Assembly: GCA_963837465.1 (NCBI GenBank)
Contig: CAWINB010000004.1
Span: forward strand, 10,853 to 74,852
Length of the DNA: 64,000 bases
Direction of reading: 5' to 3'
Source of the DNA: Candidatus Doudnabacteria bacterium
GTDB lineage: Bacteria; Patescibacteriota; Doudnabacteria; UBA920
The notes beneath the pieces are model-generated. The model saw only the letters and a program-made list of their open reading frames with translations. It had not been told where the DNA came from and made no database searches. The position numbers and the translations under genes are program-made. Shown here piece by piece: positions 1 through 57,685 of the stretch. Position 1 is the first letter of the stretch. Each line of letters begins with the position of its first letter.

Positions 1-226
1 CGGGGATCCGGTCGAGAAGTCCTGCCACTATCTGGCCGTCGCTGCGGGTCTCGATCACGTCGTTGTCCATGCCCACAGGTGAGGGACGGCGCTGTCGTTC
101 TGGTGATCGGGGACTGTCCAGCCCCTGTTGAACCGCTGACGACCCTGTCGAGGGGTTTCTCAAAGGCAACCCTTCACCACCCGTAAGCAACCGCGGGGCT
201 TGACCCGACCCCCGGTAGCGTTTCGG

Positions 227-1005
227 ATGGCGAGAGTTCTGGTAACCGGGTCGAGTGACGGCATCGGGCTGATGGCCGGCCGGCTGCTGCTGCAAGAGGG
301 CCACGAGGTGACGTTCCACGCCCGCAACGAGGAGCGGGCGGCCGACCTGCGCCGGGCCGTTCCGGGCGGGGGCCCTACCGTCGTCATCGGGGATCTGGCG
401 TCGCTCGAGCAGACCCGCTCGGTGGCGGAACAAGCCAACCGCATCGGCCGCCACGACGCGGTCATCCACAACGCCGGGATCGGCTTCCGCCGCCCGGCCC
501 GGGAGACCAGCGAGGACGGCCACGAGCTCACCTTCGCGGTCAACGTGCTGGCCGCCTACGTGCTCACCGCTCTGGTCGATCGGCCGGGGCGGCTGGTCTA
601 TCTCAGCTCGGGCATGCACCGAGGCGGGACGCCCAGCCTCGACGACGTCGAGTGGACCAAGCGGCGGTGGAACGGGACGCAGGCGTACTCGGACACCAAG
701 CTGTTCGACGTGGCGCTGGCCTTCGGGATGGCCCGGCGGTGGCCGGATGTGCTGAGCAACGCCGTCGAGCCGGGGTGGGTGGCCACCAAGATGGGCGGGC
801 CTGGGCGCCCCCGACGACCTGGCGGCGGCGCCGGTCACGCAGTGCTGGCTGGCCGTCGAGCGAGGACCCGGAGGCGAAGACGACCGGCGGTTACTGGTAC
901 CACCAGCGGCGGCGGGACGCCCACCCGGCTACCTCCGATCCCCGGTTCCAGGACGAGCTGATCGACCGCTGCGCGTCGCTCAGCGGGGTGCCGCTGCCCG
1001 GTTGA
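227..1005 (+). CDS. short-chain dehydrogenase/reductase (SDR); apparent frameshift around 820-870
   Basis: ORF 200..961 has the Rossmann motif VLVTGSSDGIG and catalytic YSDTK. The C-terminal continuation (GYWYHQRR...GVPLPG) is in the +1 frame (ORF 652..1005). Very high GC. Confidence 0.6.
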
Positions 1006-1014
1006 CCCGGGCGG

Positions 1015-1531
1015 CTACCAGTGGTCCCGGTGGACGACCTCGTCGAAGGGGCGGCGGTCGGGGTGGGCGATCGGCTTGAGGGGCCGGTCGGCCGGATAGC
1101 CCAGGGCCAGCATGTAGGCGCAGATCCGGTCCTCGGGTATGCCGAGAATGCGCCGGCAGGCCTCCTGGTCGCCGATGGCCGAGTGGCCCGAACCGATGCC
1201 CAGGTCGGTGGCGGCCAGCATCATCGCCATGGTCGCCTGGCCCAGGTCGTACTGGTCGATGGTGAGGTAGCGCTCCTCCTCCGGCTGGCCGGAGGGTCAT
1301 CACGACCGCGGCGGCCGCCTCGGCCAGGTGCCGGGCTCCCATCCACACCGTGGTGAGCTCCTGCAGCTGGGACCGGTCGGTCACCAGCACGAAGTCCCAC
1401 GGCTGCCGGTTGGACGCCGATGGTGATCGCCAGCCGGCTTCGAGGATCCGGTCGAGGTCGTCGGCCGCGATGGGCCGGTCCTGGTAGGTGCGGACGTTGC
1501 GGCGGGCCCTGATGGCGTCCCATGTCTCCAT
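1015..1531 (-). CDS. nitroreductase-family protein, frameshifted near 1290-1300
   Basis: N-terminal part RRNVRTYQDRPI...SPSASNRQPWDFVLV in ORF 980..1531. C-terminal part MAMMLAATDLGIGSGHSAIGDQEA...YPADRP in ORF 1015..1230 in another frame. Together they form a typical nitroreductase. Confidence 0.55.
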
Positions 1532-2517
1532 GGCCCAGGCTACGTGCTCGACATCGTCTCGGTGTTCATCTCGTGGCGTGGTGCCCGGACCGTCGAGTCC
1601 CCAGGCTTCCTCTTTTCTGATTTCATAGTCGCCGATGCGGAAAGATCAATCGGCGTATCGGCACTTCTTACGGGGTTGGGCTGCTCCTCGCGACGTGAAC
1701 GTCGCCGCTCCATCGGTTCTCGTGCCCGAGATCCCGGACCTAGGGAATTCCACGCGGAGTCGTCCGTCTCGCTCCGCTGGTTCCGAGAGACGACGCTGCA
1801 GCGGTGACCGCCGCCTCCAGGACGAAGAGTACCACCGCTGGACAGCGACCATCCCGTGCCCTACGAGAGCGACATGCCCAAGATGGACCGCGACACACGA
1901 AGACATTGACGATCCGGCACGGGCGTCGCTTCGCCGTCGTCGACGCAGAATCCGATGTGCTGCTCGGCTCGCTCGGCATTGGGCAGCTCGATGGAAGCAG
2001 TGAGGGCTGCATCCCGGAACTGGATCGCCGACCAAATCGCGGCCACGGAATCGCGAGCACCGCCTCGTTCTCGGGTGCGACTGGCTCCATCGAGTTGTCG
2101 GCTTTACGTGCTTCGAGCTCGTGACGATGCTCGGCAACGGTGTCGACGGCAACGGTCGCCGGGACGGCGGTTAGTCGAAGACAGGGATGGTGTCTCGTTA
2201 CGGCTTACCCGAGGCCCAGGACATCGTTTTCGACGTCACGCAATGGGTCTTAACCTATTGAAGTGTGATCGCGGACTGGTGATGCTGGATTCAGCTGATT
2301 CGCTCGCTGCCCCCGACCGCCGCTTACGTCGCTGCCCAAGGGTCAAGCCGCGAGTCGGAAATGTTGACGTCGGCCTTGCGACTACTGGTCTGAACTGGGG
2401 CTCTTATTGTCGCGTCAATCGCCATCGATATCACCGATCAGACCGATTGAGGGTTGGTGCCTCATTGCAGGGGACACATTCGCGATCGGCGACACTCAGA
2501 TCGATGCTTCGGCTCTG

Positions 2518-2835
2518 CTAACTTTCGTCGCCAACCGAGTCCTGATCGTCCCGTTCGAACTGGCGAGTGGCGTGCACCTCGTAGTGCATGCCATAGACCT
2601 GCCTCAGCTGGGCTATCGCCTTGAGATCAGCCTTGCTGTGGGGGCTCGCGGTTGCCTCACCCTCCTCGCCTTCGACCGGCTCAAAGGAATGCACAACTAT
2701 CTTTTCTAGAAGTTCCCCGAGTGTTATGCCCTTGAATTCCGCGAGTCCTTTCAGGACTTGCACCATATGCTTTTCCATCCGCACGCCGAGTTGTACCCGC
2801 TCGACACGCGACCCTTCAACCGTCTCGGCCATCAT
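2518..2835 (-). CDS. small ribbon-helix-helix-like DNA-binding protein (possible antitoxin/regulator)
   Basis: ORF 2518..2892. The segment MAETVEGSRVERVQLGVRMEKHMVQVLKGLAEFKGITLGELLEKIV resembles an RHH/Arc-type fold. Weak call. Confidence 0.3.
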   Translation of the reverse strand: MMAETVEGSRVERVQLGVRMEKHMVQVLKGLAEFKGITLGELLEKIVVHSFEPVEGEEGEATASPHSKADLKAIAQLRQVYGMHYEVHATRQFERDDQDSVGDES

Positions 2836-3214
2836 CCCTCCCTTATCTGTGTCCCTTGGTCCCAAGGTAACAAAACGGGAGGCATTCGTCAATCAACAGC
2901 AGCCTTCCGCTTCGCCGTCGGTCGCTAGCGGGGCTGATTCATGTTGACGAGCCCACCCAAGCAAGATCATCTGGCACTCTGATCGCATGCGTTCCTCCCG
3001 GCTGCGCAGGCGGCTCGGGACTTATCCGTCGCCGTGGACACACTAAAGCGCGGCGCGCTGCGGAGTTCGCCAAGTCGGATGTCGACTGGTACAACCCTGT
3101 CTTCGACCCGTCGTCTTCGGAAGCGGCGGCTGAACTGCTATCGCTCTGAACGAACTGATCGGGCTCGGATGGCCGTAGTACGAGGTAGTCGGAAGTCCCC
3201 CCTCCGACACGTAA

Positions 3215-3829
3215 CTAACAAGGACTTCGAGAGTCAGCGTCTTCGACAGCAGATGCATGGGTGTGGTCCACGTCGATGGCTACTCCGACCGAGTTGTCAT
3301 TTTCGATTAGTGATAACTCCCGGTCGAGGCAAGCAAGGATCCGGCGCTCTGGCCAGCCTTCCGGATCCACCGTTGCCCGAAGCCCGAGCCCATCCACGAC
3401 TGTCATCAACAGGTCGGCCGCGGCTGCCGGCTGAATTCCCTCGCGGAGTCGGCCACTATTTCGGAGGTTGTGAGCATGCTCTCGATGATGTGGTCCGCGG
3501 TAGTGCCGTCGCTGCTCTGCCCCGAGCCTCCCGCTCGTAGCCGCCGTTGCCCAGTAGTTGACCCAGATCGCCCACTCGAGGCGAACTTGCGCGTTGAGGG
3601 GAAGTGACTCACGCAATACAGCTCGTAGGTTCAGGGGATCGGCCATCGCCCGTCTCAAGAGGCGCTCATGGCACTCTTCCGTTGCGGTTGTCAGGGCGGC
3701 GACGAGTAGCGATTCCTTATCAGCAAAGTAGTGAGTCACCATGCCTGTGCTGCGACCAGCCTCTGCGGCGACATCGCGGATCGTCACCCGCTCGATTCCC
3801 TTCGAGGCGATCGGCGACACGCAGCCCAT
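3215..3829 (-). CDS. TetR-family transcriptional regulator (C-terminal half possibly frame-disturbed)
   Basis: N-terminal HTH ERVTIRDVAAEAGRSTGMVTHYFADKESLL is a classic TetR_N. The overlapping -strand ORF 3406..3612 suggests a local frame problem. Confidence 0.55.
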   Translation of the reverse strand: MGCVSPIASKGIERVTIRDVAAEAGRSTGMVTHYFADKESLLVAALTTATEECHERLLRRAMADPLNLRAVLRESLPLNAQVRLEWAIWVNYWATAATSGRLGAEQRRHYRGPHHREHAHNLRNSGRLREGIQPAAAADLLMTVVDGLGLRATVDPEGWPERRILACLDRELSLIENDNSVGVAIDVDHTHASAVEDADSRSPC

Positions 3830-4031
3830 GCCACCTCGAGGCGTTGTTGGTCACGATCGACAAGCTTAGGCACGGCACGACCGTAACCTTCCACGTGATA
3901 GAAAACAAATGTTCTATATCCGTGGCTCTGGAGCTAACTCCTGCATCTGCTGTCAGCTTCTTTATTCCTCTTGACGACGGCACCTCTGCTGTTAGGATGC
4001 ACAACAGATGTTTTGTTAGGTTCTAGGTTCG

Positions 4032-5679
4032 ATGCCGATCCGCCGCCAAGGCGGGCTGAGAGGGGGAAGGGCATGCGAGAGCCGTGAAGGCCATCACCCC
4101 GGGACGGGCGAGTTCCGGAGAGCCCTCAGCCGCCGAACGGTCCTCAAGGGACTCACATACGGCGGAGTTTTGGCTGCAGGTGGAGGAGTGCTGTCCTCCT
4201 GCGGTGCCTCACATAGCTCGCCCCCCAAGCAGGAAGCCCGAAAGCCGAGGCGAGGTGGGGTCCTTCGCGTTGGCCTTACGGGTGGAACCTCATCGGACAC
4301 CCTTGATCCCGATAATACGATCAATAACGTCGACTTTGCTCGTGCGTTCAACGTCTTCAACAGCTTGGTCGAGCTGAATCTTGACGCGCAGCCGCAGCTT
4401 TCTCTCGCTGAGGAGGTGACACCGAACAGCTCAGCCACCGCATGGACGATCCGTGTGCTACCAGACGTCACGTGGCACAACGGAAAGAGCCTCGGTGCTG
4501 ACGATGTCATCTTCACGCTCCGGCGCATTGCGAATCCGAAGAGCCCTCTCGAGGGTGCCTCGCAGATTGCAGCGCTTGACCTCAGCAACATCGAGAAGCT
4601 CGATGCCCGGACCATCCGGATCCATTGTCACACGCCGTTCTCAACCTTCGCCGAGACGCTTGCGGGCAACTTCTTCTTCGTCGTCCCAGTCGGCTTTGAC
4701 GTGAAGCATCCAGTCGGGACTGGCCCCTTCAGATTTGGCACTTTCTCGCCTGGGGTGGAGAGCAGTTTTCCGAGATTCGAGAATTATCTGGCAGCGCTCG
4801 CTACCTTATGTTGACAGCCTCCTCATCACCGAGTACGCGAATGAGACGAGCCAACTCGACGCCCTGCAGAGCGGTCAAGAGGACGTGATTCGTCTCCTAT
4901 CGCCGTCCAGTATTACTTCTGCCAGAACAAATGGAGGACAGGTAGTTGTCTCGCGTGGCGAAGGGTGGAATCCGTTCACTATGCGGGTCGATGTGCCTCC
5001 CTTTCACGACAACCGGGTTCGTGAGGCCATGCGGCTGATCGTGAATCGGGAGGAGATGTTAGGGGCGGTCTTCAGTGGCTACGGCACACTGGGCAACGAT
5101 GTCTTTACGATCTTCGACTCAACCTACGACCACTCCCTGCCGCAACGTCACCAGGACATCCCGCGGGCGAAGGCGCTTCTCAAGGCGGCCGGGGCTGAGG
5201 GCCTGCACGTGCAGCTCGTCACTTCTGCGATCGCCCAAGGCGTGGTCCAGTCAGCTCAGGTGTTCGCTCAACAGGCGCAAGCGGCAGGAGTGACGGTGTC
5301 GCTGAATAATGTGACACCGACTGCCTTTTACGGAGCGAACTACCTGAAATGGACCTTTGCGCAGGATGACTGGGTGTACGTTCCTTACCTTGTCCAGGTG
5401 TCGCAGGCGACTCTCCCATCGGCTCCGTTCAACGAGTGCCATTTCGACGACCCGCAGTACAACTCGCTCTACCAGCAGGCGCTCGCCACCACCGATGACG
5501 CCAAGCGCACGGAGTTGATCCACGAGATGCAGGTCATCGACTACACGAGCGGCGGATACATCATTCCGTACTTCCCCCCCGTGATTGATGCGCACTCTCA
5601 GAAGGTGCAAGGCATCGAGACCTCGAGGACGGGGCTGCCGCTTTCGAACTACGGATTCAAGTCGATGTGGTTTGCGTGA
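4032..5679 (+). CDS. ABC transporter substrate-binding protein, family 5 (peptide/nickel type), Tat-lipoprotein signal; frameshift near 4790-4830
   Basis: RRTVLKG twin-arginine motif plus lipobox-like LSSCGAS. The two ORFs 4032..4814 and 4735..5679 together read as one SBP_bac_5-like protein (RVGLTGGTSSDTLDP ... YVPYLVQ ... IIPYFPP). Confidence 0.6.
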
Positions 5680-5689
5680 GCCATTGAGG

Positions 5690-6600
5690 CATAGCCCGGC
5701 GGCCGAACTGAATCCTCGAGAGGAGATCGAGCTCGACGGGGCATCGCTGTCCTTGGAGGGATTGGCCGCCGTCGTCAGTGGCGAAAGGTCGGCTGTGCTT
5801 GCCCCGCGGGCAACGGTGCGGATGCGGGCCGCGAGGAACGTCCTTGTGAAAGAGATGGAACGTGGAATCGCCGTGTATGGCACGACGACGGGAGTTGCCG
5901 AGCGCAAACGCGTGTCAGTCGACGGTCCCCGCCAATCGGCCTTCAATCGAAGGCTCATCTCGGGTCATCGCGTCGCTCAGGGGCCGCCAGCGTCGCCGTT
6001 AATCGTGCGGGCGGCGATGCTTTGCCTCGCGAACAGTCTCGCAAAAGGGATGTCGGGTGTCCGCCCTGAGATCGTGGAACTCTTTCTCGAAGCTCTAGAC
6101 GACGGGTTCGTGCCGCTGGTGGGCAGCCTCGGCTCTGTCGGCGAAGGGGACATCGGGCCGCTCGCCGACCTTGCTCATGGCCTGCTCGATCGCAGCGGGC
6201 TTGTTCTTGAAGCTGGCGAGGGACTCGCGCTCATGAATAGCAACGCCTTCTCCACGGGATGGTCGGCACTTGCGCTGCTCAGAGCCGAGAGGTTGCTCGA
6301 CTCAACGGACGTGGCTGCCGCAATGGATCTTGAGGCGTTCGCTGCGAATCTCAGCCCTTGGCACGACATCGTTGTGGCCTGTCGCTCCTCGCCGGGCATC
6401 GAGACGACGATCGGAACAGTTCGCCAGCTGCTCTCCGGAAGTGTCCTTTGGGAGCCCGGCGGGCGCGCAATCTGCAGGATCCCATGACATTCCGCTGCAT
6501 TCCTCAGGTGCATGGCGCAGCCGCGAAGCCCTCACCTACGCCCGGGCGATCGTCGAGGCGGAGATCAACGCAGTCCAAGGGAATCCGGTGGTGGTGGTCG
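5690..6600 (+). pseudogene. histidine/phenylalanine ammonia-lyase-like (aromatic amino acid lyase family), multiply frameshifted and truncated after about 300 aa
   Basis: IAVYGTTTGVAE, GSLGSVGEGDIGPLADLAH (position of the MIO-forming GSVGASGDLAPLAH), RCIPQVHGAA and AIVEAEINAVQGNPVVV lie in three different frames (ORFs 5585..6487, 6358..6828, 6270..6647). The C-terminal ~200 aa of a normal HAL are absent. Confidence 0.55.
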
Positions 6601-7054
6601 AGGAGCAATATTTTTGCCCTGGACAACGGGCAAATCCTGGAAATTAATTCCGCCAAGGAAGCGCGCGCCACGCAGGACAGCAAAATTGCCAGCGGCTATG
6701 TATTTATAGACGGCCTCGGCGTAGGCGATGTCGGCGAAGTCGTCATTCGCGACAGGCAGGTTATGGCCCAGGGACGGAATGTTCGTGATTATAATGACTT
6801 TGGAACGACGCAGCGGCAAGCTGGTTAACCAGCCGGATATAATTTCGCGGGGGTTTATTTACATGAAGGGTAACGACAAACTCATTCGCGAAGTCAAGCA
6901 CGAAGTGCGCAAGCTGGTGGAAAGCAAAGGCAAGGAAAAACTGGAACCCAACTACGCCTTCCTGCGCAACATCGTCCGCGACGAAATCGGCGAATATCTC
7001 TACCAAAAAACCGAAAGGCGTCCGATGGTGCTGCCGGTGGTAATTGAGGTTTAA
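6600..7054 (+). pseudogene. 3' fragment of an RNase J-like ribonuclease gene, frameshifted
   Basis: ILEINSAKEARATQDSKIASGYVFIDGLGVGDVGEVVIRDRQVMAQ ... PDIISRGFIYMKG ... TERRPMVLPVVIEV spans ORFs 6358..6828 and 6728..7054. This matches my recollection of the C-terminal region of RNase J. Only the last ~150 aa are present, with no upstream beta-lactamase domain. Confidence 0.45.
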
Positions 7055-7065
7055 GCCGCAAACTT

Positions 7066-7100
7066 AACACAAAGGGGAATCCTAACAAGGATTCCCCTTT
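7066..7100 (+). terminator. hairpin AAAGGGGAATCCT-aaca-AGGATTCCCCTTT (terminator / REP-like palindrome)
   Basis: Perfect 13-bp inverted repeat directly after the RNase J fragment stop. It shares the GGGGAATCC core with the hairpin at 7757-7797. Confidence 0.6.
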
Positions 7101-7139
7101 AATTATGACCAATTATGGTATAATAAATAAAATTAAACC

Positions 7140-7754
7140 ATGGGAGGAATTATGCAATATAGGGATTATAAAATTTTTAGGGCCGGCGAAATTTATCATA
7201 TTTACAATCGAGGCAACCATAAAGAACAGATATTCTTCGATGAACAGGATTATTTAAACTACATTAAACGTATAAAATTAGCACTGGGAAAAGGCTCCCT
7301 ATCCAATCTTAAGATCCGGCCATTTCCTGCAAATACTTTTAGTATCCTATGCTATTGTTTAATGCCTAACCATTTTCACTTAATGGTTAAACAAAATAGC
7401 GATATACCAATTAGCCAGCTTATCAGCAAAGTTTCCATCAGCTACGCAATGTATTTTAATAAAAGATACAATAAAGTTGGCAATATTTTTCAAGATGCCT
7501 TTAAGGCAAAGCTAATAGACAGTGATTCTTACCTGACTTATTTATCCGCCTATATTCATAACAATCCAGAAAATCCTCAAACTTACCCTTACTCAAGTTT
7601 TCCGGACCTTGCCGGAGATAGAAACGGAACAATATGCGATAAGTACTTATTATCCTTTTTTGAAAATAATAAGGAAACTTATAAAAAATTTATATTATCT
7701 TACAATAATTCTGACTATCAAAAGATTCAGCACCTGACTTTTGAAGAGGGCTAA
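7140..7754 (+). CDS. IS200/IS605-like HUH tyrosine transposase, REP-associated (RAYT)-like
   Basis: HUH motif CYCLMPNHFHLM and catalytic-Tyr region YLSAYIHNNP. About 200 aa, AT-rich relative to neighbours, flanked by related palindromes. Confidence 0.6.
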   Translation: MGGIMQYRDYKIFRAGEIYHIYNRGNHKEQIFFDEQDYLNYIKRIKLALGKGSLSNLKIRPFPANTFSILCYCLMPNHFHLMVKQNSDIPISQLISKVSISYAMYFNKRYNKVGNIFQDAFKAKLIDSDSYLTYLSAYIHNNPENPQTYPYSSFPDLAGDRNGTICDKYLLSFFENNKETYKKFILSYNNSDYQKIQHLTFEEG

Positions 7755-7756
7755 CA

Positions 7757-7797
7757 AAAAAGGATTCCCCTAGTGCTGCACTAGGGGAATCCTTTTT
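7757..7797 (+). repeat. REP-like palindrome / terminator AAGGATTCCCCTAGTGC-TGC-GCACTAGGGGAATCCTT
   Basis: Inverted repeat with A-run and T-run flanks. It shares the core GGATTCCCC/GGGGAATCC with the hairpin at 7066-7100 on the other side of the RAYT gene. Confidence 0.55.
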
Positions 7798-7839
7798 TGA
7801 GTAGGCGGATGGGGAGTTTTTTGGTATAATCTAAATACT

Positions 7840-8820
7840 ATGAACAAACAAGAAACTTACCTTGCCGGCTGCAGGGTTAGCGGGAAGCTGCATATTGGCA
7901 ATTATTTAGGGCTGGTAAAAGATTTGCTGGAAACACAACAGCGCGACAATTTACAGCGCTTTTATTTCATTGCGGATTTACACGGATTAACCACGCCGTT
8001 TGTGCCCAAAGAAATGAAGGCAAACGCGCTGGATGTGGCGGCCAGTTATTTGGCGGCCGGGATTGACCCAAACAGGACGGTATTTTTTTTACAAAATCAT
8101 GTCCAGGAACACGCTTCTTTGGCCTGGATTTTTAACTGCATTACTCCGCTTGGGGAACTGGAAAGAATGACCCAATACAAAGATAAAACCTCCCAGCACA
8201 AAGAAAATATTAACGCCGGGCTGCTTACTTATCCCACTTTAATGGCAGCGGATATTTTACTATATAAGCCAACCTCAATCCCTGTAGGCGAAGATCAGGT
8301 CCAGCACGTGGAACTTGCCCGTTTTGCAGCGCGGAAATTTAACCATCATTTTGGCAAAACTTTTCCCGAGCCGCAAACCTATTTAACCAAACCCCTGCGC
8401 ATTATGTCCTTAACCGACCCAACAAAAAAAATGAGCAAGACCGGGGATGAGGCTTTGTTGCTTGATGATGAACCAAAGGAAATAATGAGAAAATTAAAAA
8501 AGGCTGTTACGGCCAGCGAGCCGGGTAAAAAATCCCCGGGTGTGGAAAATTTATTTTTATTAATGGAGCATTTCGGACAAAAAGAACAAGTTAACTATTT
8601 CCGCGACCAGCAAAAAAACAACACTCTTAAATTCAGTGAACTTAAGGAAACTTTGGCCAAAGATATTGCCGAATATTTTGTCGAATTCCGCGAAAAACGA
8701 AAAGAGCTTCTATCCAGACCCGAATACCTGGCCGAAGTCCTGGGAGAAGGCAGCCACAAAGCCAGGCAAGTTGCCAGCCAGACATTACTGGAAGTAAAAC
8801 AAAAAATCGGCCTGCTGTAG
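7840..8820 (+). CDS. trpS: tryptophanyl-tRNA synthetase
   Basis: Class I HIGH-type motif GKLHIGNY and KMSKS motif KMSKT. Length 326 aa. Confidence 0.85.
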   Translation: MNKQETYLAGCRVSGKLHIGNYLGLVKDLLETQQRDNLQRFYFIADLHGLTTPFVPKEMKANALDVAASYLAAGIDPNRTVFFLQNHVQEHASLAWIFNCITPLGELERMTQYKDKTSQHKENINAGLLTYPTLMAADILLYKPTSIPVGEDQVQHVELARFAARKFNHHFGKTFPEPQTYLTKPLRIMSLTDPTKKMSKTGDEALLLDDEPKEIMRKLKKAVTASEPGKKSPGVENLFLLMEHFGQKEQVNYFRDQQKNNTLKFSELKETLAKDIAEYFVEFREKRKELLSRPEYLAEVLGEGSHKARQVASQTLLEVKQKIGLL

Positions 8821-40957: not shown

Positions 40958-41032
40958 GGCGCTATCATCTAACGGTTAGGATAAGTGGTTTTCATCCACT
41001 AAATCGGGGTTCGACTCCCCGTAGCGCTACCA
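40958..41032 (+). tRNA. tRNA-Glu (anticodon TTC)
   Basis: Hand-folded cloverleaf. Acceptor GGCGCTA/TAGCGCT (one G-U). D-arm ATCT/GGAT with GG in the loop. Anticodon stem AGTGG/CCACT, loop TTTTCAT (U33, anticodon TTC, A37). T-arm CGGGG-TTCGACT-CCCCG. Discriminator A, encoded CCA. Confidence 0.8.
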
Positions 41033-41049
41033 AAGAAAATATTTATAAG

Positions 41050-41146
41050 CTAACGGTTAGGATAAGTGGTTTTTCCGCCGGAGGCGGACCCGCCTCCGGC
41101 GGGCATCCACTAAACCTGGGGTTCGATTCTCCGTACCGCTACCAAG
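41050..41146 (+). pseudogene. partial duplicate of tRNA-Glu (D-loop to 3' end) carrying a 30-nt palindromic insertion in the anticodon loop; probable att-site remnant
   Basis: TAACGGTTAGGATAAGTGG-TTTTT-[CCGCCGGAGGCGGACCCGCCTCCGGCGG]-GCAT-CCACT...GGTTCGATTCTCCGTACCGCTACCA. The 5' acceptor strand is absent. T-arm diverged from the intact copy 17 nt upstream. Confidence 0.65.
41074..41103. repeat. 30-nt GC-rich palindromic element, copy 1 (in pseudo-tRNA)
   Basis: TCCGCCGGAGGCGGACCCGCCTCCGGCGGG. 28/30 identical to copy 2 at 57030-57059. Confidence 0.8.
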
Positions 41147-42630
41147 ACCAAACTTTCAGACAATTTAGATTTATTTTCCAGGGCTGCCTTAAGGGCAGCC
41201 CATTGTGTCTGCGGGACAAATTCAATTTTTTGATTTTTTAAAAACAGGTTCGAACCGAAAATTTTTTGTGCAGCCGATTTTTTGGGGTGCAGTTCGGGCG
41301 AAAGCGTTATTTCGCCCAATTTTTCTGCGTCTTTGAGCCATTGCGTCAGGGGTTCAAACCAGGCAGCCCGCTTTTGTTCAAGACGAGCTATTTGCTCCTC
41401 CAAAGACTTCTTTTCCAAGACCAGGCCATTCTTCTGTTCCCGGTAGTTATCCCTCTCAATATCCTGGTCTAAATACATATCCTGAAGTCTTTGGAGCCTG
41501 TGGTCAATGTCCCCAATTTTTGACCGCAGCTCTTGAACAAAAGCCGCCGTGGATTGTGTTGATTCCTGCCGTTTTTTCTCGGCCATAATTAACAATTTTT
41601 CTGCCCAATCTTTGGGCATGACAAATTGCTTTAAAGTTTCTGAAAGCTTGCTGATTAATACCTCGTCCCTGACAAACGGCTGGGAGCAAACAACATTTCT
41701 TTTAGTGCAATGGTAATAGACATAACGGTGGATATTGCCATTTTTTTGTTGTTTAGTCCTTTGCTCGGCCGTAACCCCACGGCCGCATTCGCCACAGTGG
41801 AATAAACCACAGAGTAGCTGGGGATTATTTTTAGTTTCCTTATGCGGCCGACCCCGATAGGCTAAAACCTCTTGGACTTTATCAAACAATTGTTTGCTAA
41901 CAATCGGCTCGTGCTTACCTTGGTATAATTCTCCGCCAAAACGGAATAAGCCACAGTAGATAGGATTAGACAAAAGGTAGGAAATTTTATCCCGTTTGAA
42001 AAGCTTATTGCCTCTAGAAATTAATCCATGACTTTTAAAAAATTCCCCTATATCCTCCAAACGGGATTGATCTTTGGCGTACAGCTCGAAAGCGGCCTTA
42101 ACAATTAGGGTTTTTCTTTGGTCAATAGCTATTTTTTTAGTTCTTAAATCATTAATGTAGCCAATGGGAGCAAGTCCCGGATATTCGCCCCGTTTGGCTT
42201 TTTCGTGCATGCCACGTTTAGTGTTTGCGCTTAAGTCACGTACGTATTGGTTAGCTATTCCAAACTCCATTTGCATCATTAAAACATTATCAGCCGAGTA
42301 ATAGCTTTTATCATGGGTTTGAATGTGCTGGATTATACCCTCTTGCAACATCCAGCTAATTTGGGCGGCATCCACAGGATTGCGGGCTAACCTGTCCAGC
42401 TTCCAGCAAACTATGCCTTGAGCTTCACCTTTGTTAATGCGGACAAGCATATCAGTAAATACAGGGCGACCTGGTCTTTTGGCCGACTGTTTTTCAACAA
42501 ATTCGGAGGCAATATTTAAGCCCTGTTCTTTTGTTAAGGCCCTCAAAACAGCAAGCTGATCTTCAATAGACCGGACTTGCTTGTCTTCTACATCTGTGGA
42601 TTTACGGGCGTAGAGGAAATAATTTGGCAT
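41110..42630 (-). CDS. large serine recombinase no. 2
   Basis: Catalytic-Ser motif YARKSTDVEDKQ. Recombinase domain. Zinc ribbon CGLFHCGECG...YYHC. Coiled-coil. The last ~37 codons lie inside inverted repeat IR1, and the ORF runs into the pseudo-tRNA. Confidence 0.75.
   Translation of the reverse strand: MPNYFLYARKSTDVEDKQVRSIEDQLAVLRALTKEQGLNIASEFVEKQSAKRPGRPVFTDMLVRINKGEAQGIVCWKLDRLARNPVDAAQISWMLQEGIIQHIQTHDKSYYSADNVLMMQMEFGIANQYVRDLSANTKRGMHEKAKRGEYPGLAPIGYINDLRTKKIAIDQRKTLIVKAAFELYAKDQSRLEDIGEFFKSHGLISRGNKLFKRDKISYLLSNPIYCGLFRFGGELYQGKHEPIVSKQLFDKVQEVLAYRGRPHKETKNNPQLLCGLFHCGECGRGVTAEQRTKQQKNGNIHRYVYYHCTKRNVVCSQPFVRDEVLISKLSETLKQFVMPKDWAEKLLIMAEKKRQESTQSTAAFVQELRSKIGDIDHRLQRLQDMYLDQDIERDNYREQKNGLVLEKKSLEEQIARLEQKRAAWFEPLTQWLKDAEKLGEITLSPELHPKKSAAQKIFGSNLFLKNQKIEFVPQTQWAALKAALENKSKLSESLVLVAVRRIEPQV
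41140..41252. repeat. inverted repeat IR1, left copy (113 bp)
   Basis: taccaagaccaaactttcagacaattt...aaaaacaggttcg. Reverse-complement identical to 44463-44575. Confidence 0.85.
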
Positions 42631-56808: not shown

Positions 56809-57423
56809 TTGCGCGCAAATCCCGCAACCATGAACATAATATCTGCCAAATTTCTAAAAGGCGTAACCGGGCCGGACGAAAGCCTGGCGGACGGAATCCC
56901 GCAGGTGGCTTTTATCGGGCGTTCCAACGTGGGCAAGTCCAGCGTCATTAACACTTTAGCCAATAAAAAAGGTCTGGCCCGTACCAGTTCAATGCCCGGA
57001 CGCACCCAGGAAATAAATCTATTTTTGGTTTCCGCCGGAGGCGGATCCGCCTCCGGCGGAAATTTTTACCTGGTGGATTTACCGGGCTATGGTTTTGCCA
57101 AAGCCCCCAAAGATTTACAGGAACAAATCCAAAATTTGATTTACTGGTATTTTTTTGCTTCCGGTTACGGGCAAAAAAAAGTTGTCCTGATTATAGACGC
57201 CAACGTTGGCGCGACCAACAACGACATGGAAATGTTATTCAGCCTTAAGCAAGCCGATAAAGACATAATTATCGTGGCCAATAAAATTGATAAAGTAAAA
57301 AAAACCGCTCTTCAAAAACGGTTAAAAGAAATCCAAAATGTCGTCGGAGATTATAAAGTCATCCCCTACTCGGCTGAAAAAAGAACCGGGATAAACGAAC
57401 TGGCCAATGAAATTCTAAAATAA
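56809..57423 (+). CDS. engB: ribosome-biogenesis GTPase EngB/YsxC/YihA with a 10-aa palindrome-encoded insertion
   Basis: G1 VAFIGRSNVGKSS. DLPGYGFAK. NKIDK G4. The SAGGGSASGG insert between the LF and NFYLVDLPGYG segments is absent from typical EngB. Alternative start at 56830. Confidence 0.8.
   Translation: MRANPATMNIISAKFLKGVTGPDESLADGIPQVAFIGRSNVGKSSVINTLANKKGLARTSSMPGRTQEINLFLVSAGGGSASGGNFYLVDLPGYGFAKAPKDLQEQIQNLIYWYFFASGYGQKKVVLIIDANVGATNNDMEMLFSLKQADKDIIIVANKIDKVKKTALQKRLKEIQNVVGDYKVIPYSAEKRTGINELANEILK
57030..57059. repeat. 30-nt perfect palindromic element, copy 2 (in-frame within engB)
   Basis: TCCGCCGGAGGCGGATCCGCCTCCGGCGGA. Self-complementary over all 30 nt, centred on GGATCC. 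Confidence 0.85.
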
Positions 57424-57424
57424 A

Positions 57425-57452
57425 AATCCTGCCAATGCCGGCAGGATTTTTA
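57425..57452. terminator. bidirectional hairpin ATCCTGCC-aatgcc-GGCAGGAT between convergent engB and ORF 57470..57685
   Basis: Perfect 8-bp stem flanked by A-run and T-run. Confidence 0.65.
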
Positions 57453-57469
57453 TTTTAGAATTTCATTTT

Positions 57470-57685
57470 TTACATTTCCGGCAAGGCATCAAACTTAATC
57501 TTGAAGCCGGCCCACCATTTAGCCGTGTCGTCTGAGCTCATTTTCTTTATTTGCTCAGCAAGGTCAGGATGATTCTGCGTTACGTGGTCGGTGCCGTTTT
57601 TAACCATCTCCTCGGCAGTGTTGCCGGTAAGGACAACGCCGCAAGTCGCCGGGCCGCCCATTTGGGCACAAGTCATTTGTTTCAT
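57470..57685 (-). CDS. small DUF1059-like protein
   Basis: 71 aa. MKQMTCAQMGGPATCG start with paired Cys, as in small metal-binding DUF1059 proteins. Weak call. Confidence 0.35.
   Translation of the reverse strand: MKQMTCAQMGGPATCGVVLTGNTAEEMVKNGTDHVTQNHPDLAEQIKKMSSDDTAKWWAGFKIKFDALPEM

What the first reader, a model, noticed from the sequence alone, without database searches (positions are those of the whole stretch)
7066..7797. RAYT-type HUH transposase flanked on both sides by related REP-like palindromes
ORF 7140..7754 has the IS200-like HUH motif (LMPNHFHLM) and a YxxxNP tyrosine region. It is the most AT-rich gene in the neighbourhood. The hairpins at 7066-7100 and 7757-7797 share the core GGGGAATCC/GGATTCCCC. 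REP-associated tyrosine transposases are characteristically flanked by the REPs they mobilise. I am not aware of this described for CPR-like low-GC genomes, which is why it is worth a look. It also sits exactly at the compositional breakpoint.
Basis: partly seen in the sequence, partly recalled or inferred. Interest (0 to 1): 0.6.

Follow-up and report, generated by a model that had tools for sequence, protein, structure and literature searches.

The report
RAYT-like gene bracketed by cognate hairpins
A single-copy relative of the REP-associated tyrosine transposases sits in a tiny-genome (CPR-type) bacterium between two perfect DNA hairpins built from one shared short unit; related genomes carry the same unit as a scattered repeat, so this is a known kind of system in a new host group.

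Summary
ORF 7152-7754 (the start is better placed at 7152 than 7140) is a Y1 HUH protein: Pfam Y1_Tnp above threshold, invariant NHFH and AYIHNNP, and a predicted fold closest to E. coli RAYT bound to a REP hairpin. Two perfect palindromes (7071-7100 and 7755-7799) share the 11-mer AGGATTCCCCT. That 11-mer occurs nowhere else in the 64 kb.

An 82%-identical ortholog in the same rnj-Y1-trpS position keeps hairpin 1 at 30/30 bases, while third codon positions are only 58% identical. All 11 lineages examined have their own hairpin unit on both flanks of the gene. The window's unit (consensus ACAAGG-ATTCC-CCTTGT, stem covarying) is a scattered, mostly intergenic doublet palindrome in related CPR genomes, with at least 7 sites in one genome.

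The RAYT/REP reading is therefore supported at family level. It is not shown for this genome: there are no extra copies in 57 kb, the canonical GTAG foot is absent, and the NCBIfam RAYT model scores below its cut-off.

The "compositional breakpoint" is an assembly join at 6603/6604 inside rnj and is unrelated to the gene.

Verdict: a new member of a known kind, of moderate interest.

The parts
6604..7054 (+). 3' part of the RNase J gene (rnj). It is cut at 6603/6604 by an assembly join and carries a 1-nt insertion (an extra G near 6771) that shifts the frame. It is the upstream neighbour of the element.
   Evidence: Alignment with the independent assembly L001. Orthologous loci L002/L003/L006 have full-length RNase J with Pfam RNase_J_C.
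7071..7100 (.). Hairpin 1: AAAGGGGAATCCT-AACA-AGGATTCCCCTTT. It is an inverted pair of the unit (U' at 7073-7083, U at 7088-7098). It lies 16 nt after the rnj stop codon and just upstream of the Y1 promoter.
   Evidence: -13.9 kcal/mol, z -7.6. Identical at 30/30 bases in L002. Flagged as terminator-like on the minus strand.
7116..7124 (+). Extended -10 promoter-like element TGGTATAAT for the Y1 gene. The same element precedes trpS at 7822-7830.
   Evidence: Read from the sequence. The stretch 7101-7127 is 26/27 identical in L002, while the 5'UTR is only 50% identical. Function is inferred.
7152..7754 (+). Y1 HUH (IS200-like fold) gene of 200 aa: class-2 TnpA_Y1 / RAYT-like. HUH is at 7371-7379 (H74-F-H76). 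The catalytic-Tyr motif YIHNNP is at 7551-7568. GGGAGG lies at 7142-7147.
   Evidence: H74, H76 and Y134 invariant in 33 sequences. (pLDDT 93). (4ER8 top hit). (motifs align with E. coli RayT). Codon-position identity 86/89/58% against L002 indicates purifying selection.
7755..7799 (.). Hairpin 2: CAAAAAAGGATTCCCCTAGTGC-T-GCACTAGGGGAATCCTTTTTTG. It is an inverted pair of the unit in the opposite order (U at 7761-7771, U' at 7783-7793). It starts 1 nt after the Y1 stop codon and is followed by a T-run, so it looks like a bidirectional terminator.
   Evidence: -23.7 kcal/mol, z -10.6. 41/45 identical in L002.
7840..8820 (+). trpS (tryptophanyl-tRNA synthetase), the downstream neighbour. The rnj-Y1-trpS order is shared by orthologs down to 61% Y1 identity.
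   Evidence: Pfam tRNA-synt_1b. Synteny in L002, L003, L006 and L007.

Best explanation
This is a REPtron/TIRtron-like locus. It holds a chromosomally resident, single-copy class-2 Y1 HUH nuclease/transposase (RAYT-like) with its own promoter, bracketed by its cognate hairpin DNA.

Shown:
- The enzyme fold and the catalytic residues.
- The two perfect palindromes are inverted pairs of one unit whose core is AGG-ATTCC-CCT.
- The palindromes are far better conserved than silent sites.
- Every lineage of this protein family that I examined has its own hairpin unit on both flanks.
- In related CPR genomes the window's unit type (17-nt hairpin ACAAGG-ATTCC-CCTTGT, usually as inverted doublets) is scattered at many sites without the gene.

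Inferred, by analogy with E. coli TnpA_REP and IS608/ISDra2 TnpA:
- The protein binds the folded single-stranded hairpin, cuts and rejoins next to it through Tyr134 and the HUH-bound metal, and thereby can copy or move hairpin doublets in trans.
- In this genome the two flanking palindromes probably also serve as terminators. Hairpin 1 would end rnj transcription and insulate the Y1 promoter; hairpin 2 would end Y1 transcription.
- The lineage appears to have few or no dispersed copies. The units here have a weakened small stem (3-4 bp instead of 6).
For: Protein:
- Pfam Y1_Tnp 40.7 bits against a cut-off of 23.
- H74, H76 and Y134 are invariant in 33 homologs.
- AF2 model with pLDDT 93. Top PDB match is 4ER8, RAYT plus REP hairpin (E 1.3e-5, TMt 0.65), followed by ISDra2 and IS608 TnpA.
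- The motifs HUH, (W/F)Q, Y..NP and P-x-S-S/T-F line up with E. coli RayT.
- The motif set NHFH / FQ / YIHNNP fits class 2 of Quentin et al. 2018.

Hairpins tied to the gene:
- All occurrences of the unit in 64 kb are in the two flanks.
- Window against L002: hairpin 1 30/30, promoter 26/27, hairpin 2 41/45, but codon position 3 58% and spacers 38-50%.
- 11 of 11 lineages have lineage-specific hairpin units 0-18 nt after the stop and 11-53 nt before the start.

Single copy and residency:
- One copy in the window.
- Identical proteins P0080 and P0100, each read on 24 contigs, always sit at the same locus.
- The rnj-Y1(-trpS) order is kept at 61-62% Y1 identity.
- Rare on plasmids (13 of 72,556 records, all below 33% identity) and on phages.

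Dispersal in relatives:
- U'-U doublets occur at at least 7 loci in Doudnabacteria nzgw383, at 5 in CAZGAF01, 4 in CAZPRQ01 and 5 in CAYXJG01. Only L110 carries a Y1 gene next to one.
- The genome of L110 has a further copy elsewhere (L022).
- U-U doublets occur in 29 metagenome loci, only one of them next to Y1.
- L125 and L164 show their own flank unit again at extra sites within 20 kb.
- The small-hairpin stem covaries: score 0.261 against 0.133 for shuffles, 0 of 500 shuffles reach it.
Against: - No copy of the unit outside the two flanks in 57 kb of this genome, nor in 18.7 kb (L002) or 12.6 kb (L006) of the closest relatives. At the density seen in relatives (roughly 7-10 per Mb) this is only weakly informative, but dispersal in this genome is unproven.
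- The NCBIfam REP_Tyr_transpos equivalog scores 38.9 bits against a cut-off of 80.
- Sequence profiles do not reach 4ER8.
- There is no GT[AG]G guide at the hairpin foot.
- In one genome (CAZGAF01) the only Y1 gene I saw has a different flank unit from the dispersed GGATTCCCC palindromes. The enzyme-repeat pairing in the multicopy genomes is directly shown only for JAJZRC01 (L110/L022), L125 and L164.
- Y1 and TrpS identities are incongruent: window-L002 is 82% against 61.5%, window-L006 is 61% against 70%. Inheritance is therefore not purely vertical.
- No biochemical data exist for this subfamily.
Confidence: 0.65

Rival explanations
1. It is a minimal autonomous IS200-like insertion sequence, about 730 bp from 7071 to 7799. 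The hairpin units act as the left-end and right-end subterminal hairpins on the same strand. It is currently single-copy or inactive in this genome.
For: - In most lineages the units nearest the gene are direct repeats on the coding strand, as IS200/IS605 ends are.
- The size is close to that of IS200.
- The left hairpin is terminator-like, as in IS200.
- The gene sits in different neighbourhoods in distant lineages: rnj-trpS, comM-like/ROK, EpsG/polA, methyltransferase/ATPase.
- Y1 and TrpS identities are incongruent.
- The gene's GC is about 10 points below its locus in all six lineages measured.
Against: - It is never seen in more than one context per genome. Identical proteins on 24 contigs always lie at one locus, and there is one copy in the window.
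- Synteny is kept down to about 60% protein identity.
- The motif is Y---NP, not the Y---Q of IS200 TnpA, and the protein is 200 aa rather than about 150.
- The best fold match is RAYT.
- The dispersed copies in relatives are gene-less hairpin doublets, not whole elements.
- It is almost absent from plasmids and phages.
Confidence: 0.15
2. The two palindromes are ordinary intrinsic terminators (of rnj and of the Y1 gene). They resemble each other through a local duplication or shared terminator 'style' and have no functional tie to the protein.
For: - Both lie directly after stop codons.
- Hairpin 2 is followed by TTTTTT and hairpin 1 by TTTAATT.
- Hairpin 1 is flagged as terminator-like, on the minus strand.
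- Many dispersed copies in relatives lie 6-26 nt after stop codons.
- There are only two sites in this window.
Against: - None of the other roughly 35 genes in the window uses this sequence.
- The both-flank pattern with a lineage-specific unit recurs in 11 of 11 lineages, including units placed 11-25 nt upstream of the start where no upstream gene end requires a terminator.
- Sequence, not just pairing, is conserved at 30/30.
- A small hairpin inside each arm covaries, which a simple terminator does not need.
Confidence: 0.08
3. The hairpins are operator-like sites through which the Y1 protein only regulates its own expression, or protects its locus. There is no transposition or repeat-spreading activity in this lineage: a fully domesticated enzyme with another single-stranded-DNA function.
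For: - Hairpin 1 abuts the -35 region of the conserved promoter.
- There are no dispersed copies in 57 kb.
- The small-hairpin stems in this lineage are degenerate (3-4 bp) compared with the dispersed consensus.
- There is strong purifying selection on the protein.
Against: - Catalytic His and Tyr residues are invariant.
- Related genomes do show spread of the same unit.
- There is no direct evidence for regulation.
Confidence: 0.1

Closest known systems
REPtron: TnpA_REP/RAYT gene flanked by REP/REPIN (E. coli rayT/yafM; Pseudomonas; class 2 TnpA_Y1 of Quentin et al. 2018, PMC6006769; Bertels et al. 2017, PMC5581495)
   Same: - Y1 HUH fold, with the best PDB match 4ER8.
- Y---NP motif.
- A single-copy chromosomal gene kept in synteny.
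- Both flanks carry hairpins, arranged as inverted doublets (REPIN-like).
- The hairpin type co-varies with the protein lineage.
- The same unit is dispersed, mostly intergenic and sometimes in frame inside genes, in related genomes.
   Different: - No GT[AG]G tetranucleotide at the hairpin foot.
- FQ replaces the W(Q/E) motif.
- The NCBIfam RAYT equivalog scores below its cut-off (38.9 against 80).
- No dispersed copies are seen in this genome's 57 kb, and copy numbers in relatives are low (single digits to about ten, not hundreds).
- The host is a CPR/Patescibacteria-type genome of under 1 Mb.
- The nearest flank units are mostly in direct, not inverted, orientation.
TIRtron / TIRYT (Di Nocera et al. 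2013, PMC3733652; mostly subclass 2.1 of Quentin et al.)
   Same: - A RAYT-like gene flanked by repeats at a fixed short distance from the ORF, in species without classical REPs.
- The repeats are partly self-complementary, are sometimes members of small repeat families, and are organised as dimers.
- NH[YF]H and FQ motifs.
- G-rich cores (GGGGAATC here, GGGTCAC in L008) resemble GGGGWSAS.
   Different: - GGGGWSAS is matched at only 6 of 8 positions here.
- The protein is 200 aa with no detectable C-terminal HTH-type domain (the subclass 2.1 median is 238 aa).
- The Y motif is YIHNNP, not Y[IV]HLNP or YIELNP.
IS200/IS605-family TnpA with subterminal left-end and right-end hairpins (IS200, IS608, ISDra2)
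   Same: - Same fold and same catalytic residues.
- Hairpins close to both gene ends on one strand.
- The left hairpin can act as a terminator.
- The element is about 0.7 kb.
   Different: - The motif is Y---NP, not Y---Q.
- There is a 50-aa C-terminal extension.
- There is no multicopy behaviour and no tnpB partner.
- Synteny is conserved.

Membership tests
Y1 HUH transposase superfamily (Pfam PF01797 Y1_Tnp) | Profile match above the curated threshold | tested here: met
   40.7 bits against a cut-off of 23; residues 65-142 match model positions 39-121 of 121
Y1 HUH transposase superfamily (Pfam PF01797 Y1_Tnp) | HUH motif and a single catalytic Tyr, conserved | tested here: met
   H74-F-H76 and Y134 are invariant in 33 homologs and align with E. 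coli RayT HUH and Y..NP
Y1 HUH transposase superfamily (Pfam PF01797 Y1_Tnp) | TnpA-type alpha/beta fold | tested here: met
   AF2 pLDDT 93. Foldseek hits: 4ER8, 2XM3, 2VJV, 2F4F, E from 1e-5 to 1e-3
Class 2 TnpA_Y1 = TnpA_REP/RAYT (Quentin 2018; Bertels 2017) | Y---NP tyrosine motif (class 1 and IS200 have Y---Q) | tested here: met
   YIHNNP.
Class 2 TnpA_Y1 = TnpA_REP/RAYT (Quentin 2018; Bertels 2017) | Low copy number and no near-identical duplicates | tested here: met
   One copy in 64 kb. Identical proteins are always at one locus. The whole source genome could not be examined
Class 2 TnpA_Y1 = TnpA_REP/RAYT (Quentin 2018; Bertels 2017) | Gene flanked on both sides by hairpin (REP-like) sequences of one family | tested here: met
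   The same architecture is seen in 11 of 11 lineages
Class 2 TnpA_Y1 = TnpA_REP/RAYT (Quentin 2018; Bertels 2017) | The flanking sequence is over-represented elsewhere in the same genome (REP/REPIN population) | tested here: inconclusive
Relatives: at least 7, 5, 5 and 4 loci per genome. Extra copies of the own flank unit occur in L125, L164 and the genome of L110
Class 2 TnpA_Y1 = TnpA_REP/RAYT (Quentin 2018; Bertels 2017) | Canonical REP: 5' GT[AG]G guide at the foot of the hairpin | tested here: not met
   The feet are AAAGG.../ACAAGG..., with no GTAG or GTGG. Subclasses 2.6 and 3 are also described as lacking it
NCBIfam NF047646 REP_Tyr_transpos (equivalog) | Score at or above the curated cut-off of 80 bits | tested here: not met
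   38.9 bits. It is the only NCBIfam hit, E 7.5e-10
IS200/IS605 insertion sequence (subclass 1.1) | Y---Q motif, a core-only protein of about 150 aa, and multiple near-identical copies | tested here: not met
   YIHNNP, 200 aa, single copy
IS200/IS605 insertion sequence (subclass 1.1) | Subterminal hairpins at both ends on the same strand | tested here: met
   Direct copies of the unit lie upstream and downstream in most lineages
TIRYT/TIRtron (Di Nocera 2013) | Terminal inverted repeats flanking the gene | tested here: met
   7084-7098 against 7783-7797: 15 nt, 93% complementary
TIRYT/TIRtron (Di Nocera 2013) | GGGGWSAS motif in the repeat, and the C-terminal HTH-like domain of subclass 2.1 | tested here: not met
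   GGGGAATC matches 6 of 8 positions. Pfam finds no domain other than Y1_Tnp at E up to 1
Rho-independent terminator | GC-rich stem followed by a T-run, placed after a stop codon | tested here: inconclusive
   Hairpin 2 has a 22-bp stem followed by TTTTTT, read from the sequence. The scan flags only hairpin 1, on the minus strand. No transcript data are available

The most novel reading that the evidence does not exclude
The roughly 200-aa NHFH/FQ/YIHNNP proteins form a large, so far unclassified CPR-centred subclass of domesticated Y1 enzymes. Each is kept with a private pair of hairpins that double as the gene's insulating terminators. From these hairpins the enzyme seeds small populations of REPIN-like doublets, some inserted in frame into housekeeping genes, in genomes of under 1 Mb. 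This would be a RAYT-REPIN-type partnership persisting in the most streamlined bacteria, possibly supplying them with terminators.
Probability: 0.3. Interest if true: 0.55.

Novelty: new member of a known kind. Interest (0 to 1): 0.42.

Why it matters
RAYT/REP systems have been characterised almost entirely in Proteobacteria, Cyanobacteria and Bacteroidetes. The surveys I read (Bertels 2017; Quentin 2018; Di Nocera 2013) do not mention CPR/Patescibacteria, and the library search found no paper on it.

Finding the same gene-plus-cognate-hairpin architecture in bacteria with genomes under 1 Mb has several consequences:
- The hairpin types co-vary with the protein, which points to co-evolution of enzyme and substrate.
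- Low-copy dispersed doublets are present even in extremely streamlined genomes, so these genomes retain this kind of element.
- There are in-frame insertions in genes.
- It offers a compact, sequence-defined enzyme/substrate pair (a 200-aa protein and a 17-nt hairpin) for biochemical work on how non-GTAG hairpins are recognised.

For annotation, it shows that these 'transposase' calls in CPR MAGs are not signs of active IS load.

The chimeric join at 6603/6604 is a practical warning about this assembly.

Tried and rejected
- phmmer of the protein against PDB sequences found nothing relevant.
- The family profile against PDB gave only marginal ISDra2 hits in the HUH region, E about 0.6-0.9. 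The link to RAYT therefore rests on the predicted fold and on motifs.
- The Foldseek afdb50 library was unavailable.
- An exact look-up of the 204-aa ORF and of cluster member P0122 found no contig.
Two of the Doudnabacteria nzgw383 hits (L028, L075) are the same locus at contig ends.
- About 25 Acidimicrobiaceae/Acidimicrobiales hits (gtgtcGGGGAATCCTtggAGGATTCCCCgacac, mostly one per listed genome) are an unrelated conserved site and were set aside.
- Viral contigs hold only one distant relative.
- Considered and rejected: that the gene marks a horizontally acquired island at a GC break. The break is an assembly join, and the low GC of the gene is a family-wide trait, about 10 points below the locus in all six lineages measured.
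- Considered and rejected: chance similarity of two terminators.
Full report
**1. What is in the sequence**

The ORF listed at 7140..7754 is present. Three things place the real start at ATG 7152. A GGGAGG box lies at 7142-7147. All 33 aligned homologs begin M-x-x-RDYK. The identical database protein P0001 is 200 aa.

The product matches Pfam Y1_Tnp at 40.7 bits (cut-off 23). It carries LMPNHFHLM (H74, H76) and AYIHNNP (Y134).

Two perfect palindromes bracket the gene:
- Hairpin 1, 7071-7100: AAAGGGGAATCCT-AACA-AGGATTCCCCTTT.
- Hairpin 2, 7755-7799: CAAAAAAGGATTCCCCTAGTGC-T-GCACTAGGGGAATCCTTTTTTG.

As single-stranded DNA they fold at -13.9 and -23.7 kcal/mol (z = -7.6 and -10.6).

They share the 11-mer AGGATTCCCCT (U) and its complement (U'). 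GGGGAATCC occurs four times in 64 kb, all in these two hairpins, against 0.56 expected. Allowing three mismatches in a 15-mer adds no further site.

The arm order is swapped between the two hairpins, so the layout is U'-U - gene - U-U'.

The gene is the most AT-rich of 36 ORFs of at least 150 aa (GC 0.325).

**2. The 'compositional breakpoint' is an assembly join**

An independent assembly of the same organism (L001) matches the window from about 6604 rightwards, apart from one substitution and the extra G near 6771. To the left of that point L001 continues the RNase J gene, whereas the window switches to unrelated 59-70% GC DNA.

That high-GC DNA carries a frameshifted SBP_bac_5 gene and an aromatic-lyase gene cut at the join. 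The window also has an extra G near 6771 that frameshifts rnj.

The break is therefore about 550 bp upstream of the ORF, cuts two genes, and says nothing about the element.

The gene's low GC is a family trait. It is about 10 points below the surrounding locus in all six lineages measured.

**3. The protein**

The family is large:
- 3,862 clusters at 90% identity were found through the word index.
- 18,029 representatives at 50% identity have E up to 1e-3.

The few named members are 'Candidatus Doudnabacteria' transposases.

H74, H76 and Y134 are invariant. Codon-position identities against the 82% ortholog are 86/89/58%, which indicates purifying selection.

An AlphaFold model (pLDDT 93) has as its best PDB match 4ER8, E. 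coli RAYT bound to a REP hairpin (E 1.3e-5, TMt 0.65). ISDra2, IS608 and IS200 transposases follow. Sequence-only searches of the PDB are marginal.

A profile alignment with E. coli RayT (taken from NC_000913.3) lines up HUH, IFQ/IWQ and the YPYSSF/WPFSTF motif.

In the classification of Quentin et al. 2018, Y---NP defines class 2 (TnpA_REP-like). The combination NHFH/FQ/YIHNNP at 200 aa falls between two subclasses:
- Subclass 2.1 (TIRYT): NH[YF]H, FQ, 238 aa, an HTH tail.
- Subclass 2.4: NH[IFV]H, WQ, YIxNNP, 194 aa.

The curated NCBIfam RAYT equivalog is the only NCBIfam hit, but it scores below its cut-off (38.9 against 80).

**4. The hairpins belong to the gene**

The ortholog P0002 (82% identity; L002-L004) sits in the same rnj-Y1-trpS position. 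Segment by segment, window against L002:

| Segment | Identity |
|---|---|
| Hairpin 1 | 30/30 |
| Adjacent promoter stretch | 26/27 |
| Hairpin 2 | 41/45 |
| Third codon positions | 58% |
| Spacers and 5'UTR | 38-50% |

More distant lineages each have their own unit directly upstream (11-53 nt before the start) and downstream (0-18 nt after the stop):

| Locus | Y1 identity to window | Flank unit |
|---|---|---|
| L006 | 61% | CAAAGG-ATTCC-CCTTTG |
| L110 | 62% | ACAAGG-ATTCC-CCTTGT |
| L005 | 59% | ACAAAGAT-C-ATCTTTGT |
| L164 | 56% | ACGAGG-GTTCC-CCTCGT |
| L125 | 55% | CAAAG-GTGCT-CTTTG |
| L166 | 55% | ACGAAG-ATCAC-CTTCGT |
| L008 | 53% | ACGAGGG-TCA-CCCTCGT |
| L127, L133 | 53%, 51% | GGAAGAnnATCTTCC plus AAGTCCCC |

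That is 11 of 11 lineages. The shared stretches are 12-19 nt, against about 7 nt in shuffled flanks.

The upstream unit always lies just before a TG-extended -10-like box. It is therefore probably not part of the Y1 transcript.

**5. Single copy and residency**

- The window has one copy.
- Identical proteins seen on 24 contigs (P0080, P0100) are always at one locus.
- rnj-Y1 linkage persists at 61-62% Y1 identity.
- Relatives are nearly absent from plasmids (13 of 72,556 records, all below 33% identity), from phages (1 record) and from viral contigs (1 distant hit).

One caveat: Y1 and TrpS divergences are incongruent. Window-L002 is 82% against 61.5%; window-L006 is 61% against 70%. Some recombination or transfer has therefore occurred.

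**6. The same unit is a dispersed repeat in related genomes**

About 35 of these are CPR MAGs with the consensus ACAAGGGGAATCCTTGCGCnnCGCAAGGATTCCCCTTGT:

| Genome | Loci |
|---|---|
| Doudnabacteria nzgw383 | at least 7 distinct |
| CAZGAF01 | 5 |
| CAYXJG01 | 5 |
| CAZPRQ01 | 4 |
| CAYVNU01, JAEUSF01, JAJZRC01 | 2 each |

Only one of these loci (L110, JAJZRC01) has a Y1 gene next to the palindrome. There the palindrome is the gene's flank, and a second copy lies elsewhere in the genome (L022).

Most copies are intergenic, often 6-26 nt after a stop codon.

The opposite doublet order (U-U') gave 29 metagenome loci, only one of them next to Y1. These include about ten distinct contexts in one groundwater sample. 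Three lie on a 496-kb contig whose units have the stem AGAGG/CCTCT.

On 104 distinct units the stem pairs outside the fixed core covary (AU/GC, CG/AU, AU/GU). The covariation score is 0.261 against 0.133 for shuffles (0 of 500 reach it) and at most 0.107 for slid controls. Pairing stops after 6 bp. These rows are not independent, and the core was fixed by the search pattern.

Lineages with other units also show extra copies:
- L125 has a doublet and a singlet 4-7 kb from the gene.
- L164 has a doublet 870 bp away.

**7. What this means for the window**

The architecture and the family behaviour match a REPtron/TIRtron.

In this genome there is no copy beyond the flanks in 57 kb. At the densities seen in relatives, fewer than one would be expected in that length, so this is not decisive.

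The window's units keep the 11-nt core but only 3-4 bp of the small stem, while the long palindromes are perfect and terminator-like. The most economical reading has three parts:
- A resident RAYT-like gene sits with its cognate hairpins.
- The hairpins here also insulate the transcription units.
- The lineage has few or no dispersed copies.

The biochemical steps (binding of the folded single strand, cleavage and rejoining through Tyr134) are inferred from E. coli TnpA_REP and IS608/ISDra2. They are not shown.

**8. Rivals**

- A minimal IS200-like element fits the direct orientation of the flank units, the size and the varied neighbourhoods. It is contradicted by strict single-copy behaviour, deep synteny, the Y---NP motif, and the gene-less nature of the dispersed copies.
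- 'Just terminators' fails on the 11 of 11 lineage-specific both-flank pattern, on sequence-level conservation and on the internal covarying hairpin.
- A purely regulatory or operator role cannot be excluded for this lineage.

**9. Novelty**

The kind of system is known: RAYT/REP, TIRYT/TIR, and subclasses with atypical hairpins. I found no description for CPR/Patescibacteria in the searchable library.

I rate it a new member of a known kind, with moderate interest. The family-wide, hairpin-co-varying architecture in genomes under 1 Mb and the in-frame insertions are the most noteworthy aspects.

Noticed in passing
window 1-6603 (join at 6603/6604): Unrelated 59-70% GC DNA is fused to the CPR-type sequence in the middle of two genes. 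It carries an SBP_bac_5 gene split by a frameshift (4032-4814 / 4735-5679) and an aromatic amino-acid lyase truncated at the join. There is also a 1-nt insertion in rnj near 6771. This looks like a chimeric, indel-prone (long-read?) assembly.
   Followed up: yes
window 41072-41103 and 57029-57062: A second, unrelated doublet-palindrome family: TTCCGCCGGAGGCGGA(C/T)CCGCCTCCGGCGG. Its unit is CCGCC-GGA-GGCGG, another small hairpin in inverted pairs. It has two exact copies in the window (0 of 100 shuffles reach the observed match count). It does not flank the Y1 gene, so its mobiliser, if any, is unknown.
   Followed up: partly
window 56809-57423 (palindrome at 57029-57062): The second-family palindrome lies in frame inside a GTPase gene (EngB/YihA-like by my reading; Pfam matches MMR_HSR1 and FeoB_N). 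It encodes SAGGGSASGG just before the LVDLPGYGFA motif. This is an intragenic palindrome insertion that keeps the reading frame.
   Followed up: partly
window 40958-41140: tRNA-Glu (40958-41032) is followed by a partial second copy of itself (about 41054-41136). A 30-nt second-family palindrome is inserted exactly in the anticodon loop of that copy. It abuts the 3' end of a large serine recombinase gene (41110-42630, minus strand). This is probably an att-site duplication of an integrated element.
   Followed up: partly
L012:1529-1559, L016:2731-2761, L068:5065-5095, L071:1368-1398, L080:3507-3537; L013:2185-2215: In five related CPR genomes the GGGGAATCCT...AGGATTCCCC palindrome lies in frame at the same position of orthologous family-2 glycosyltransferase genes. 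It encodes TRGILVRHKDSPC next to a length-variable loop. In a sixth case it lies inside a DinB-like polymerase gene. No ortholog of this glycosyltransferase is in the window.
   Followed up: partly
About 25 genome-scan loci, e.g. L015, L020, L021, L024, L027, L038 and L042: Many Acidimicrobiaceae/Acidimicrobiales genomes carry, mostly once per listed genome, a conserved site gtgtcGGGGAATCCT-tgg/cca-AGGATTCCCCgacac inside a conserved context (ctgcactgatcgcccgaacc...). It shares the 10-mer arms by coincidence or convergence and is unrelated to the CPR repeats.
   Followed up: no
window 7152-7754 against 7840-8820, compared with L002 and L006: Y1 is 82% identical between the window and L002 while the adjacent TrpS is only 61.5%. 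Against L006 the order is reversed (61% and 70%). This hints at recombination or replacement of one of the two genes within a conserved gene order.
   Followed up: no
window 57406-57467: The longest perfect palindrome of the window has 28-nt arms: AATGAAATTCTAAAATAAAAATCCTGCC / GGCAGGATTTTTATTTTAGAATTTCATT. It lies between the convergent GTPase gene and ORF 57470-57685, and is likely a bidirectional terminator.
   Followed up: no
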